The notes below the pieces were generated by a model that was not told where the DNA came from, ran no database searches, and saw only the letters and a program-made list of their open reading frames with translations. The translations under genes and the position numbers were made by a program. A DNA stretch of 64,000 bases from Thermoproteota archaeon. GTDB lineage: Archaea > Asgardarchaeota > Jordiarchaeia > Jordiarchaeales > Freyrarchaeaceae. The stretch spans positions 64,001 through 128,000 of the forward strand of contig JAPDJY010000035.1 of the NCBI GenBank assembly GCA_029258835.1, in the 5' to 3' direction. Shown piece after piece: positions 36,914-39,004 of the stretch; positions within the stretch are counted from its first letter, which is position 1, and each line of letters starts with the position of its first letter.

Positions 36914-37027
36914 TCTAAGACGCTCCTTTCATTCAGGCTATTTTAGGCAAGCTTAAAATAAAACTTTTACCGCTTTTAATCCTCGATAGTTAAAAGGGCC
37001 ATAATGTTTGCTGGAGGCGGGAGCATT

Positions 37028-37882
37028 GTGAAGGGATGGCTATTCGAAATCTTCTCCTCCTACCAATCCTTACTAAAATAAGGGGTGAAGGGGAGGGTGG
37101 AAGCGTAAAGGGGTCAAATTACGGGAAGCGGACGATATAGGCCATCCGAGGGGCCGTCGACTTATCCGCTTCTCGGGGTGTAACATATGGTTAGGAGAGT
37201 TTGGTAGGCGAGGGTGTGGGTGGTGCGACACCTTAAACGGCGCCAGACGCCCCACGCCGCTCAGCCTAAATCTGAATATTTGAAGATATCAACAGTTGAA
37301 GAAGGCATGTTTCAAGTGAAAAATCCCGTGGAGCCAGGACTAGTTGTAGAATACGTTAAACGTGTCCACTCACCAGATGTTCACGCGATTTCCCTGACAG
37401 GAGGGGAACCATTATTTCAACTAGAGTTCCTCGCTTCAATAATGAAAGCCCTTAAAGGGGAAGGATACAAAACATACTTGGAAACCAACGGTTCAATGCC
37501 GGAACGAATGGATAAAATAGCATTCTTAACAGACTATTGTTGCTGTGATATTAAAGATGAAACGGCAGGTGCAGCAGAAAACTGGAGACGGCTCGTTGAG
37601 CTGGAGCTAAAAACAATAAGTATACTTATAGATAATGGTGTCAGCGTCTTCGCTAAGGTTGTCGTTACTTCGGAGACGAAGCCTGAAAACGTTGAATGGT
37701 ATGCATCAAAGCTTTCAAGGATGGACTGCCCGCTATGTATTCAACCGGTAACGCCTATAAGGAATTATAGGCCGCCTTCACAACGCCAACTCTTCAGCTT
37801 CACGGAGGCGGCAGCAAAACATCTTGGGAGCGATAATGTGGCCATATCTGTTCAAGTACACAAGTTTTTGGGTATACCTTAA
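37028..37882 (+). CDS. queE: 7-carboxy-7-deazaguanine synthase, split into 4 exons: join(37028..37066,37090..37138,37162..37229,37247..37882)
   Basis: Joined exons give 792 nt and 263 aa: MKGWLFEIFSSYQGEGGSVKGSNYGKRTIFIRFSGCNIWLGEFGRRGCGWCDTPHAAQPK...SLTGGEPL..YLETNG..DIK..QPV..QVHKFLGIP. Clustered with DUF366 and queD. Confidence 0.9.
37067..37089 (+). other. BHB mRNA micro-intron 1 of queE (23 nt)
   Basis: TCCTTACTAAAATAAGGGGTGAA. Central helix UACC/GGUG, bulges AA^U and AA^G, intron stem CCUUA/UAAGG. Contains in-frame TAA; removal restores Q|GEG. Confidence 0.88.
37139..37161 (+). other. BHB mRNA micro-intron 2 of queE (23 nt)
   Basis: AGGCCATCCGAGGGGCCGTCGAC. Central helix CGAU/GUCG, bulges AU^A and AC^U, intron stem GGCC/GGCC, exon stem GAAGCGGA/UCCGCUUC. 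Removal restores TIFIRFSGCN. Confidence 0.86.
37230..37246 (+). other. Relaxed-BHB mRNA micro-intron 3 of queE (17 nt)
   Basis: ACCTTAAACGGCGCCAG. Central helix UGCG/CGCC (3 of 4 pairs), bulges AC^A and AG^A, intron stem CC/GG, exon stem GGUGUGGG/CCCACGCC. Removal restores CGWCD|TP. Confidence 0.78.
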
Positions 37883-37896
37883 GGGGAGGCACCCAC

Positions 37897-38532
37897 TTGA
37901 ACTTGAAAAACTTGGAAGTAGTGGAACAGGCTCCTTTAACTGTGGCATTAGTTCCCTTTACTCATCATTTTCCATATACCGGAAGGGAAATAGCGCCGCT
38001 GTGGGCTCTGAAGACATTCGGCATACAGGGGGATTCCATAATCGTTTTCCGTGGTCCCCTTAGCGTTTTAGAGTCCGAACTCGTAGACGTGAAAGACCTT
38101 GTCTTTGAAGGAGGAAAAGGACGCCCTGTTATTTCGTCTAAGGATGCCATAAGCTTTATCATAGAACATTTTGATCAGCAACCACCATCTCTACGGCTAA
38201 TGTATCATAGACTTAGGATCATAGCGTTCCTTTTTAAGGAGCTTGCCGAGGAAAAATGCGGCTTAAGGCTTCAACGTGACGGTACAGACACATACTTTAA
38301 TGGAGGAAAACTTAACGTTGGGGTGGCAACAGTTTCCTCGGGATCCGGAAAAATCCATTTTGCAATAAACATTTCCGTTGAGGGAGCGCCTCCCGGAATC
38401 AAAGTAGCAAGCCTCCTAGACTTAGGCGTTAGCGAAGGTGAAGTCGAGTCGTTTGCTGTTTCCCTCGCTAAACGTTACAGGCGTGAGATACTAGACGTTG
38501 AGAGTGACGTTGCGAAATCTAAAACCTTCTAA
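37897..38532 (+). CDS. DUF366 family protein (que-cluster associated)
   Basis: YTGREIAPLWA, GDSIIVFRGP, FIIEHFD, RDGTD, KLNVGVAT and KIHFAINI motifs. Confidence 0.85.
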   Translation: MNLKNLEVVEQAPLTVALVPFTHHFPYTGREIAPLWALKTFGIQGDSIIVFRGPLSVLESELVDVKDLVFEGGKGRPVISSKDAISFIIEHFDQQPPSLRLMYHRLRIIAFLFKELAEEKCGLRLQRDGTDTYFNGGKLNVGVATVSSGSGKIHFAINISVEGAPPGIKVASLLDLGVSEGEVESFAVSLAKRYRREILDVESDVAKSKTF

Positions 38533-38542
38533 GGGTGATAAG

Positions 38543-39004
38543 TTGCCCTACAGGCTTACGGTTGAAAGAGCAGACTTAACGTTTTCAGCTGCCCATTTCC
38601 TCCTCAAACATGAGAAGTGTGCCCGTTTACACGGTCATAACTATAAGGTTAGGGTGGAAGTTGCTTCCGACCTTTTAGATGGAAAACACATGGTGATCGA
38701 CTTCTTTTCCATAAGAGAGCTGGCTAGAAAGGCGTGCGAACCGTTGGATCATCGCGTTTTAATACCAGCTAAGTCTAATGAAATCTCGATTAAAGAATGT
38801 GAAAACGAGGTTGAAGTTGTTCTCACCGACCGGAGGTACGTTTTCCCCAGAAGCGATGTAGCGTTACTACCTTTAGAAGCCACAACTGTAGAAAAAATTG
38901 CTGAATATCTCTATGCGAAGATTAGGGAGAAGCTCCCGGAAGGTTTTAATCTTAAGGTCTCAGTAGAGGAAGCTGAAGGAGCTATAGCAACGTTTGAACT
39001 ATAA
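38543..39004 (+). CDS. queD: 6-carboxy-5,6,7,8-tetrahydropterin synthase
   Basis: FSAAHF, CARLHGHNY, VIDF, LDHRVL and TTVE motifs; start set at TTG 38543 after GGGTGA. Confidence 0.92.
   Translation: MPYRLTVERADLTFSAAHFLLKHEKCARLHGHNYKVRVEVASDLLDGKHMVIDFFSIRELARKACEPLDHRVLIPAKSNEISIKECENEVEVVLTDRRYVFPRSDVALLPLEATTVEKIAEYLYAKIREKLPEGFNLKVSVEEAEGAIATFEL

What the first reader, a model, noticed from the sequence alone, without database searches (positions are those of the whole stretch)
37125..37172. queE intron 2: BHB splitting the Phe codon of FIRFSGCN
CGAU (37133-36) pairs with GUCG (37156-59). The bulges are AUA and ACU, the intron stem is GGCC/GGCC, and an 8-bp exon stem GAAGCGGA/UCCGCUUC is offset by 2 nt. 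The BHB rule picks the T|TT (Phe) junction, matching family consensus, over the alternative Leu junction. Retention gives UAG at 37138-40. Its sequence is unrelated to intron 1 despite equal length, which suggests an independent gain.
Basis: partly seen in the sequence, partly recalled or inferred. Interest (0 to 1): 0.75.

Follow-up and report, generated by a model that had tools for sequence, protein, structure and literature searches.

The report
tRNA-type mini-intron in Asgard queE-like gene
A 23-base hairpin that breaks a radical-SAM (QueE-like) gene of an uncultured Asgard archaeon has the shape cut by the tRNA-splicing enzyme. Every known relative of its class keeps it at the same codon, so the mRNA is very probably spliced, which papers report for hardly any archaeal protein gene.

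Summary
Window 37122-37175 folds as described: an 11-bp exon helix, a 4-bp helix CGAU/GUCG, a 5' bulge AUA and an intron stem GGCC/GGCC. The 3' bulge is 5 nt (ACUUA), not 3.

Removing 37139-37161 (23 nt) joins T|TT and gives GKRTIFIRFSGCN. This aligns without gaps to seven intronless Asgard orthologs, where the Phe is invariant.

All 11 genomes of the class, plus 4 extra contigs, have an insert at exactly this point:
- Insert lengths are 18, 19, 21, 23, 30 or 38 nt.
- The boundaries are invariant (GAUAU|AGG ... GUCGA(A/C)|U).
- The inner stems covary.
- The spliced frame is under purifying selection (dN/dS 0.07-0.16).

The gene carries two more such mini-introns. The genome encodes a two-subunit, Aeropyrum-like EndA that has the loop giving broad substrate range, and one RtcB. 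Its single EF-1alpha gene is split in the same way.

Best reading: an EndA/RtcB-spliced pre-mRNA intron of the relaxed HBh' class (confidence 0.85). No RNA evidence could be obtained. The "queE" name is provisional. Independent gain relative to intron 1 cannot be judged, and the equal length is coincidence.

This scan had already noted similar mRNA introns elsewhere in this genome and in other archaea. The closest published cases are the crenarchaeal cbf5 intron and the Haloferax HVO_1309 5'-UTR intron.

The parts
37028..37066 (+). Exon 1 of the QueE-like radical-SAM gene. It starts at GTG 37028 (an in-frame ATG at 37004 is the alternative) and ends ...EIFSSYQ.
   Evidence: Three-frame reading. 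Relatives start at the equivalent (M/V)KGW.
37067..37089 (+). Intron 1, 23 nt. Central helix UACC/GGUG, cuts AA|U and AA|G, inner stem CCUUA/UAAGG.
   Evidence: Removal gives SSYQ|GEGG, matching intronless orthologs. The scanner finds it at exactly this position and length. It is 20-26 nt in relatives.
37090..37138 (+). Exon 2 (GEGGSVKGSNYGKRTI plus the first base of the Phe codon).
37122..37132 (+). 5' strand of the outer (exon) helix, CGGGAAGCGGA. It pairs with 37165-37175.
   Evidence: MFE structure. The helix is kept in the same register in family f1 but formed by other codons in family f2.
37133..37136 (+). Exonic strand of the 4-bp central helix (CGAU).
   Evidence: Pairs with GUCG 37156-59. 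Three pairs are invariant in all 11 genomes. The first pair is C-G in f1 and A.G in f2.
37137..37139 (+). 5' bulge AUA. The predicted cut is 37138|37139.
   Evidence: GAUAU|AGG is invariant in 15 of 15 sequences.
37139..37161 (+). Intron 2, 23 nt: inner stem GGCC (37140-43) with GGCC (37152-55), 8-nt loop, and the intronic strand of the central helix, GUCG (37156-59).
   Evidence: Excision restores ...GKRTI F IRFSGCN.... It is 18, 19, 21, 30 or 38 nt in relatives, at the same junction. The inner stem covaries.
37160..37164 (+). 3' bulge ACUUA (5 nt). The predicted cut is 37161|37162.
   Evidence: GUCGA(A/C)|U is conserved in 15 of 15 sequences.
37162..37229 (+). Exon 3 (last two bases of the Phe codon, then IRFSGCNIWLGEFGRRGCGWCD, which holds the radical-SAM cysteines). 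Bases 37165-37175 form the 3' strand of the outer helix.
37230..37246 (+). Intron 3, 17 nt (the junction can slide by up to +2). Central helix UGCG/CGCC with one U.C mismatch, cuts AC|A and AG|A.
   Evidence: Removal gives WCD|TPH, matching WCDSP in intronless orthologs. It is 15-30 nt in relatives, and UGCG pairs with CGCA, CGUA or CGCG there.
37247..37882 (+). Exon 4 (TPHAAQPK ... LTGGEPLFQ ... KFLGIP, stop TAA 37880-82).
   Evidence: Pfam Radical_SAM. Orthologs.

Best explanation
Window 37139-37161 is a 23-nt archaeal (tRNA-type) intron inside the coding sequence of a QueE-like radical-SAM gene.

Proposed mechanism:
1. In the pre-mRNA, exon and intron sequence fold into a relaxed bulge-helix-bulge motif of class HBh'. 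This is a 4-bp helix CGAU/GUCG, a 3-nt 5' bulge closed by the intron stem GGCC/GGCC, and a 5-nt 3' bulge closed by an 11-bp helix made of coding sequence.
2. The splicing endonuclease EndA cuts two nucleotides 3' of each strand of the 4-bp helix, at 37138|37139 and 37161|37162.
3. RtcB joins the exons. This creates the Phe codon U|UU and the reading frame ...GKRTIFIRFSGCN....
4. Without excision, translation stops at UAG 37138-40.

The intron is one of three mini-introns in this gene. It was already present in the common ancestor of the class (Jordiarchaeia).

Shown here: the structure, the exact junction, the conservation, the covariation, purifying selection on the spliced frame, and the presence of the enzymes.
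Inferred: that EndA and RtcB are the enzymes that act, and that the 5-nt bulge is cut at the canonical distance from the helix.
For: 1. Structure. The MFE fold gives exactly this motif. All three hairpins of the gene form together in the 341-nt fold.

2. Junction. Removing the three inserts yields open frames with 0 stops in this genome and in 10 relatives. These align gap-free with 7 intronless orthologs, and Phe is invariant at junction 2.

3. Conservation. All 11 genomes of the class carry the insert, as do 4 further contigs. Lengths are 18, 19, 21, 23, 30 and 38 nt, which covers all three frame offsets, with in-frame stops (two in L008). The boundaries GAUAU|AGG and GUCGA(A/C)|U never change.

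4. Covariation. The inner stem has 4 of 10 pairs changed on both sides and 91% of cells paired. Sliding the partners drops pairing from 81% to 32-51%.

5. Selection. dN/dS of the spliced CDS is 0.07-0.16. The first 55 codons also have dN well below dS. The Ile codon before the cut is AUA in 11 of 11 intron-bearing genes but varies (ATT or ATA) in intronless ones.

6. Chance. An HBh' motif at a given position and length has probability about 1e-3, or about 3e-5 with the outer helix. The scanner hits introns 1 and 2 at exactly the protein-defined coordinates.

7. Machinery.
- One EndA paralog keeps the Tyr/His/Lys triad. Its best match is the A. pernix alpha subunit (3p1z_B, E 4e-46). It aligns gap-free through the Crenarchaea-specific loop, including the equivalent of Lys44. 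In A. pernix that loop confers cleavage of non-canonical motifs (PMC3241643).
- A second paralog has Ala in place of the catalytic His, which suggests an (alpha-beta)2 enzyme.
- There is one RtcB.

8. Same genome. The only EF-1alpha gene over the TIGR00483 cut-off has its P-loop Lys codon split by a 43-nt hairpin with helix CGGC/GCCG and cuts AA|U and AA|G. mRNA splicing of this type must therefore work in this organism.

9. Lineage. Jordiarchaeia are reported to have about 2-2.4 intervening sequences per tRNA gene (bioRxiv 10.64898/2026.10.13.758758; PMC11291895).
Against: - No RNA-level evidence exists.
- No protein in the 5.8-billion-protein set shows the spliced N-terminus; all close homologs are truncated or read-through gene calls.
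- The 3' bulge is 5 nt instead of 3, and the exon helix is offset by 2 nt. In family f2 the central helix has only 3 of 4 pairs. The motif therefore fails the strict hBHBh' definition.
- BHB-like motifs of this looseness are common by chance. [quoted passage not shown]
- Covariation rests on 10 distinct, related sequences.
Confidence: 0.85

Rival explanations
1. Translational recoding. The ribosome deals with the insert by frameshifting, stop-codon read-through or a gene-60-like bypass, and the RNA is never cut.
For: A stop codon (UAG) directly follows the last sense codon and is followed by a hairpin, which superficially resembles the T4 gene 60 take-off site.
Against: - Insert lengths of 18-38 nt cover all three frame offsets, so no single frameshift rule fits.
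- In-frame versions carry one or two stops.
- A hop from AUA to the next Ile-like codon (AUC 37164-66) would delete the invariant Phe and one more residue, whereas the excision model aligns without gaps.
- Three different sites in one gene, plus EF-1alpha, would all need recoding.
- The conserved features are those of a BHB motif, not matched take-off and landing codons.
Confidence: 0.04
2. A real RNA intron, but removed by something other than EndA/RtcB, or cut at a different phosphodiester. This would give Leu/Ile (ATA|CTT) or Tyr instead of Phe.
For: The 3' site lies in a 5-nt bulge, so the ruler that places the cut is inferred rather than shown. Any 23-nt deletion in this neighbourhood restores the frame.
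Against: - Only the cut predicted by the BHB rule gives Phe in every genome: T|TT or T|TC in 15 of 15 sequences. Phe is invariant in intronless orthologs.
- The same rule predicts the protein-defined junctions of introns 1 and 3.
- No other small-intron splicing system is known in archaea (established knowledge).
Confidence: 0.06
3. A decaying pseudogene or an assembly artefact. The inserts are damage and no functional protein is made.
For: Gene callers see only a truncated 219-aa ORF (P0001). The gene does not reach any QueE equivalog cut-off.
Against: - The same three interruptions occur in 11 independent species-level genomes and 4 other contigs.
- Exons have 0 stops after excision and dN/dS of 0.07-0.16.
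- The inserts have conserved ends and compensatory stem changes.
- The gene keeps its conserved neighbours, fwdD upstream and DUF366 or a PTPS/QueD-family gene downstream.
Confidence: 0.02

Closest known systems
BHB intron in the cbf5 pre-mRNA of Crenarchaeota (Desulfurococcales, Sulfolobales; Watanabe 2002, Yoshinari 2006, Yokobori 2009 = PMC2738675)
   Same: - A short intron inside a protein-coding sequence that splits a codon.
- An unconventional (relaxed) BHB motif.
- Cuts predicted between the second and third bulge residues agree with the protein-defined borders.
- The host has a hetero-oligomeric EndA with the Crenarchaea-specific loop.
- The intron is conserved across an order-level clade, with gains and losses.
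   Different: - A different gene (a QueE-like radical-SAM enzyme) and a different lineage (Asgard, Jordiarchaeia).
- Three introns in one gene instead of one.
- The 3' site lies in a 5-nt bulge.
- Splicing of cbf5 was shown by cDNA and in vitro cleavage; here it is not shown.
Non-canonical tRNA introns of Jordiarchaeia/Freyarchaeia and Thermoproteales (hBHBh', HBh', hBH and relaxed classes; Marck & Grosjean 2003; bioRxiv 10.64898/2026.10.13.758758; PMC11291895)
   Same: The same motif grammar (4-bp helix, cuts two nucleotides into each bulge, flanking helix h'), the same size range, and the same intron-rich lineage.
   Different: [quoted passage not shown] No sequence similarity to anything else in the genome was found.
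BHB intron in the 5' UTR of Haloferax volcanii HVO_1309 mRNA (PMC7714728)
   Same: An mRNA that is a substrate of the archaeal splicing endonuclease.
   Different: That intron lies in the untranslated leader and does not interrupt the reading frame. Here excision is required to make the protein at all.
HAC1/XBP1 unconventional mRNA splicing in eukaryotes (IRE1 cleavage, RtcB or Trl1 ligation)
   Same: A tiny, spliceosome-independent, frame-changing intron in an mRNA (26 nt in XBP1, from my own knowledge). It is presumably sealed by the same ligase family (RtcB).
   Different: The nuclease and recognition motif differ: IRE1 cuts in two 7-nt loops. This comparison rests on my own knowledge, is an analogy only, and was not tested here.

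Membership tests
Archaeal BHB intron (EndA/RtcB-spliced) | A 4-bp central helix between the two cleavage sites | tested here: met
   C-G, G-C, A-U and U.G (37133-36 with 37156-59) in the MFE. Three pairs are invariant in 11 genomes. The first pair is C-G in family f1 and an A.G mismatch in family f2.
Archaeal BHB intron (EndA/RtcB-spliced) | A 3-nt bulge at the 5' splice site, closed by an intron helix h' of at least 2 bp | tested here: met
   Bulge AUA, and h' = GGCC/GGCC. In relatives h' is 3-11 bp, with 4 pairs changed on both sides.
Archaeal BHB intron (EndA/RtcB-spliced) | A 3-nt bulge at the 3' splice site, closed directly by an exon helix h (strict hBHBh') | tested here: not met
   The bulge is 5 nt (ACUUA). 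The 11-bp exon helix starts 2 nt late, and only 1 bp could form directly next to a 3-nt bulge. The motif therefore belongs to the HBh' or relaxed class, which broad-specificity EndA enzymes cut (PMC3241643, PMC5829648).
Archaeal BHB intron (EndA/RtcB-spliced) | Cuts after the second nucleotide of each bulge give a functional product | tested here: met
   The junction T|TT gives Phe. The alignment to 7 intronless orthologs is gap-free, and Phe is invariant in 18 of 18.
Archaeal BHB intron (EndA/RtcB-spliced) | The host encodes the splicing endonuclease and the RtcB ligase | tested here: met
   Two EndA paralogs: one catalytic with the specificity loop, and one with His replaced by Ala. One RtcB at 607 bits.
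Archaeal BHB intron (EndA/RtcB-spliced) | Cleavage and ligation observed (cDNA junction, circular intron, or in vitro assay) | not testable with these tools
Two scans of metagenome contigs for the spliced junction returned nothing.
QueE, 7-carboxy-7-deazaguanine synthase | Score above an NCBIfam QueE equivalog cut-off | tested here: not met
   The QueE models are among the top hits (the very top for all three orthologs), but scores are 24-62 bits against cut-offs of 200-300. This holds for exon 4 and for three intronless orthologs. No locus in the genome passes TIGR03963 or TIGR04508.
QueE, 7-carboxy-7-deazaguanine synthase | Radical-SAM cluster motif with an insertion (Cx14CxxC-like), N-terminal QGEG motif, and queD context | tested here: inconclusive
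   The spliced protein has EIFSSYQGEGG and CNx10CxxC. A QueD/PTPS gene and a DUF366 gene follow. The PDB QueE match is weak (4njg, E 8e-6). Sources name the orthologs QueE. I therefore call it QueE-like.
Programmed translational bypass (T4 gene 60 type) | Matched take-off and landing codons that give the conserved protein | tested here: not met
   The take-off codon would be AUA. The nearest Ile codon downstream is AUC 37164-66, and landing there would delete the invariant Phe.

The most novel reading that the evidence does not exclude
The three obligatory mini-introns may not be passive passengers. They may make synthesis of this 7-deazapurine/pterin-pathway enzyme depend on the cell's EndA/RtcB capacity, acting as a splicing-gated switch. 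This gene would then be one visible part of a class-wide set of spliced protein genes that includes EF-1alpha. That would make Jordiarchaeia prokaryotes with routinely split, RNA-spliced coding genes.
Probability: 0.15. Interest if true: 0.9.

Novelty: new member of a known kind. Interest (0 to 1): 0.78.

Why it matters
In the literature I could search, published archaeal mRNA splicing amounts to one coding gene (cbf5, Crenarchaeota) and one 5' UTR (Haloferax). [quoted passage not shown] The gene holds three such introns, and they are conserved across a whole class.

- It shows that coding sequence can supply half of the splicing motif and stay under double constraint.
- It explains why databases hold only truncated or chimeric gene calls for these genes.
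- It gives exact junctions that can be tested in existing metatranscriptomes.
- Together with the EF-1alpha case in the same genome, it suggests that tRNA-type splicing of mRNAs is a regular part of gene expression in this lineage.

Tried and rejected
- Spliced or intronless DNA or cDNA: exact-pattern scans of JGI metagenome contigs for the spliced junction of family f1 and of family f2 each gave 0 hits.
- Spliced proteins: among 71 homologs in the 5.8-billion-protein set, all close ones are truncated at intron 3 or read through an in-frame insert, such as P0003 and the frame-hopping P0002. None is spliced.
- Intron transposition from tRNA introns: blastn-short of the intron and of the whole motif against the genome found only itself. 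The best other hit was 16 nt with E = 1.5.
- ARAGORN found only 25 tRNAs, 20 of them with introns, so a proper comparison with tRNA introns was not possible.
- Motif enrichment: the window does not hold more BHB-like motifs than its shuffles (89 against 89-111), so motif counts alone were rejected as evidence.
- A loose scan of the window for a BHB motif plus ORF merging mostly returned junctions between neighbouring genes and was dropped.
- My first guess for intron 3 (23 nt, 37233-37255) was wrong. Relatives show that the TPHA codons are coding and that the intron is 17 nt (37230-37246).
- Structure prediction of the spliced protein was not attempted, because a joined sequence has no reference.

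Full report
**Observation.** RNAfold on 37115-37182 returns the proposed structure as the MFE and as the centroid:
- a 4-bp helix CGAU (37133-36) with GUCG (37156-59);
- a 3-nt bulge AUA (37137-39);
- an intron stem GGCC/GGCC with an 8-nt loop;
- a 5-nt bulge ACUUA (37160-64).

The energy is -28.7 kcal/mol, z = -2.63, and 3 of 200 shuffles fold as well. The '2-nt offset' therefore means that the 3' bulge is 5 nt, not 3. TAG at 37138-40 is in the frame of the upstream exon.

**The gene.** The ORF that gene callers see (P0001, 219 aa) is only the C-terminal part of a radical-SAM protein (Pfam PF04055). The missing N-terminal motifs lie just upstream in three other pieces, in different frames. 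Removing three short inserts gives one open frame...EIFSSYQ|GEGGSVKGSNYGKRTI-F-IRFSGCNIWLGEFGRRGCGWCD|TPHAAQ.... The inserts are:
- 37067-37089 (23 nt);
- 37139-37161 (23 nt);
- 37230-37246 (17 nt).

Homologs carry names from Jordarchaeales/Freyarchaeota, that is Asgard archaea. The neighbours are fwdD and fwdA upstream, and DUF366 and a QueD-type gene downstream.

The name queE is provisional. QueE models rank among the top NCBIfam hits but score far below their cut-offs, both for exon 4 and for intronless orthologs. No locus in the genome passes the two QueE models I searched genome-wide.

**Comparative test of the junction.**
- The gene was found in all 11 species-level genomes of the class. 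That is this genome, 4 of the same family (f1) and 6 of a second family (f2).
- It was also found in 7 genomes of other Asgard families. Those 7 have an uninterrupted gene.
- All 11 class genomes are interrupted at the same three points.
- After excision, each of the 11 gives a frame with no stop. All align without a gap to the intronless proteins at all three junctions, and the residue made by junction 2 is Phe in 18 of 18.
- Intron 2 is 23 nt here, 18 or 19 nt in f1 relatives and 30 nt in f2. It is 19, 21, 30 and 38 nt on four further contigs.
- The inserts therefore shift the frame by 0, +1 or +2, and the in-frame ones contain one or two stops.
- The ends never change: GAUAU|AGG at the 5' side and GUCGA(A/C)|U at the 3' side.
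- The split codon is T|TT or T|TC, which is a synonymous difference. The alternative Leu junction would give Ile in most relatives.

**Is it an RNA structure under selection?**
- The inner stem differs in sequence and length between lineages but always pairs. Examples are GGCC/GGCC, GGC/GCC, GGCCU/AGGCC and 10-11-bp stems in f2.
- On the 11-sequence alignment, 4 of its 10 pairs change on both sides and 91% of cells pair. Sliding the partners lowers overall pairing from 81% to 32-51%.
- The central helix is invariant in three pairs. The first pair is C-G in f1 and A.G in f2.
- The outer helix is made from different codons in the two families.
- The Ile codon before the cut is AUA in all intron-bearing genes but ATT or ATA in intronless ones. 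This fits a constraint from the RNA motif.
- The spliced reading frame is under purifying selection, with dN/dS of 0.07-0.16, and the first 55 codons show the same pattern.

**Chance.** A BHB-like motif is not rare by itself. My scanner finds about 3,800 HBh' patterns per 128 kb in the window and equally many in its shuffles. With an outer helix of at least 5 bp it finds about 95. A preprint on Asgard tRNA introns makes the same warning for relaxed classes.

The evidence is the coincidence. The scanner reports introns 1 and 2 at exactly the exon end and length that the protein alignment requires. The chance of this is about 1e-3 per position-and-length pair, or about 3e-5 with the outer helix, and it then repeats in every relative.

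**Machinery.**
- The genome has one RtcB and two EndA-family ORFs.
- The 190-aa ORF keeps Tyr, His and Lys. Its best match is the catalytic alpha subunit of the Aeropyrum pernix (alpha-beta)2 enzyme (3p1z_B, E 4e-46).
- It aligns without a gap through the Crenarchaea-specific loop, with Lys at the position of K44. In A. pernix this loop and this Lys allow cleavage of non-canonical bulge-helix-loop motifs (PMC3241643).
- The second ORF has Ala where the catalytic His should be, so it looks like a structural subunit.
- A two-subunit, broad-specificity enzyme is my inference. It is the enzyme type linked to cbf5 pre-mRNA splicing (PMC2738675).

**Support from the same genome.** The only locus above the TIGR00483 cut-off starts at model position 19. 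The P-loop GHVDHG|KST is split in the Lys codon by a 43-nt hairpin. It has helix CGGC/GCCG, cuts AA|U and AA|G, and a 10-bp inner stem. An essential single-copy gene broken this way implies that this kind of mRNA splicing works in the organism.

**Rivals.**
- Translational recoding does not fit the range of lengths and frames. It also does not fit the extra stops or the gap-free alignment that needs the Phe.
- A pseudogene or an artefact does not fit 15 independent sequences with conserved ends, compensatory changes and low dN/dS.
- A different cut site or a different enzyme cannot be excluded without RNA data. However, only the BHB rule gives Phe everywhere, and the same rule predicts the junctions of introns 1 and 3.

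**What remains open.**
- No RNA evidence was obtained.
- Two scans of metagenome contigs for the spliced junction were empty.
- No spliced protein is in the large protein set.
- The intron has no relative elsewhere in the genome, so its origin is unknown.
- 'Independent gain' relative to intron 1 cannot be tested, since both predate the split of the two families. Their equal length here is coincidence.

**Comparison with what is known.** The papers I could search report BHB introns in archaeal mRNAs only for cbf5 of Crenarchaeota (coding) and HVO_1309 of Haloferax (5' UTR). The papers on intron-rich Asgard tRNAs do not mention mRNA introns. This case works like the cbf5 intron but lies in another gene and another lineage. 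It comes with two sister introns and has a 5-nt 3' bulge. I file it as a new member of a known kind. Earlier notes of this scan describe similar introns in other genes of this genome and in other archaea. Apart from EF-1alpha and the two sister introns, I did not check them.

Noticed in passing
window 37067-37089: Intron 1 of the same gene (23 nt). It splits SSYQ|GEGG, with central helix UACC/GGUG and inner stem CCUUA/UAAGG. It is 20-26 nt in the 10 class relatives, at the same junction.
   Followed up: partly
window 37230-37246: Intron 3 (17 nt; the junction can slide by up to +2), directly after the radical-SAM WCD. It is 15-30 nt in relatives. The exon UGCG pairs with CGCA, CGUA or CGCG at the intron's 3' end; here that end is CGCC, giving one U.C mismatch.
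   Followed up: partly
G000 C27, about 28874-28832, minus strand (L026): The single EF-1alpha gene has its P-loop Lys codon (GHVDHG|KST) split by a 43-nt BHB-like hairpin, with helix CGGC/GCCG and cuts AA|U and AA|G.
   Followed up: partly
L019 1210-1782 (G000 C1) and L020 862-1788 (G000 C6): There are two EndA paralogs. One is catalytic, Aeropyrum-alpha-like and carries the Crenarchaea-specific loop. The other has the catalytic His replaced by Ala and a 130-aa low-complexity N-terminal extension in its ORF. This suggests an (alpha-beta)2 enzyme in an Asgard archaeon.
   Followed up: partly
P0002 and P0003 (L002 and L003): Public gene calls for orthologs are artefacts of the unspliced DNA. P0003 reads through the in-frame 15-nt intron 3 (adding SKKRK). 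P0002 starts in a wrong frame and re-enters the true frame at intron 3. Most others are truncated at intron 3.
   Followed up: yes
window 37837-39004; L022-L025: The QueE-like gene lies next to fwdD, DUF366 and a QueD/PTPS gene, and each of four other contigs keeps part of that neighbourhood. The gene does not reach any QueE equivalog cut-off, so it may be a distinct QueE-like subfamily of unknown substrate.
   Followed up: partly
whole genome G000: ARAGORN recognises only 25 tRNA genes, 20 of them with introns, some implausibly long. This is consistent with heavily interrupted tRNA genes that standard tools miss.
   Followed up: no
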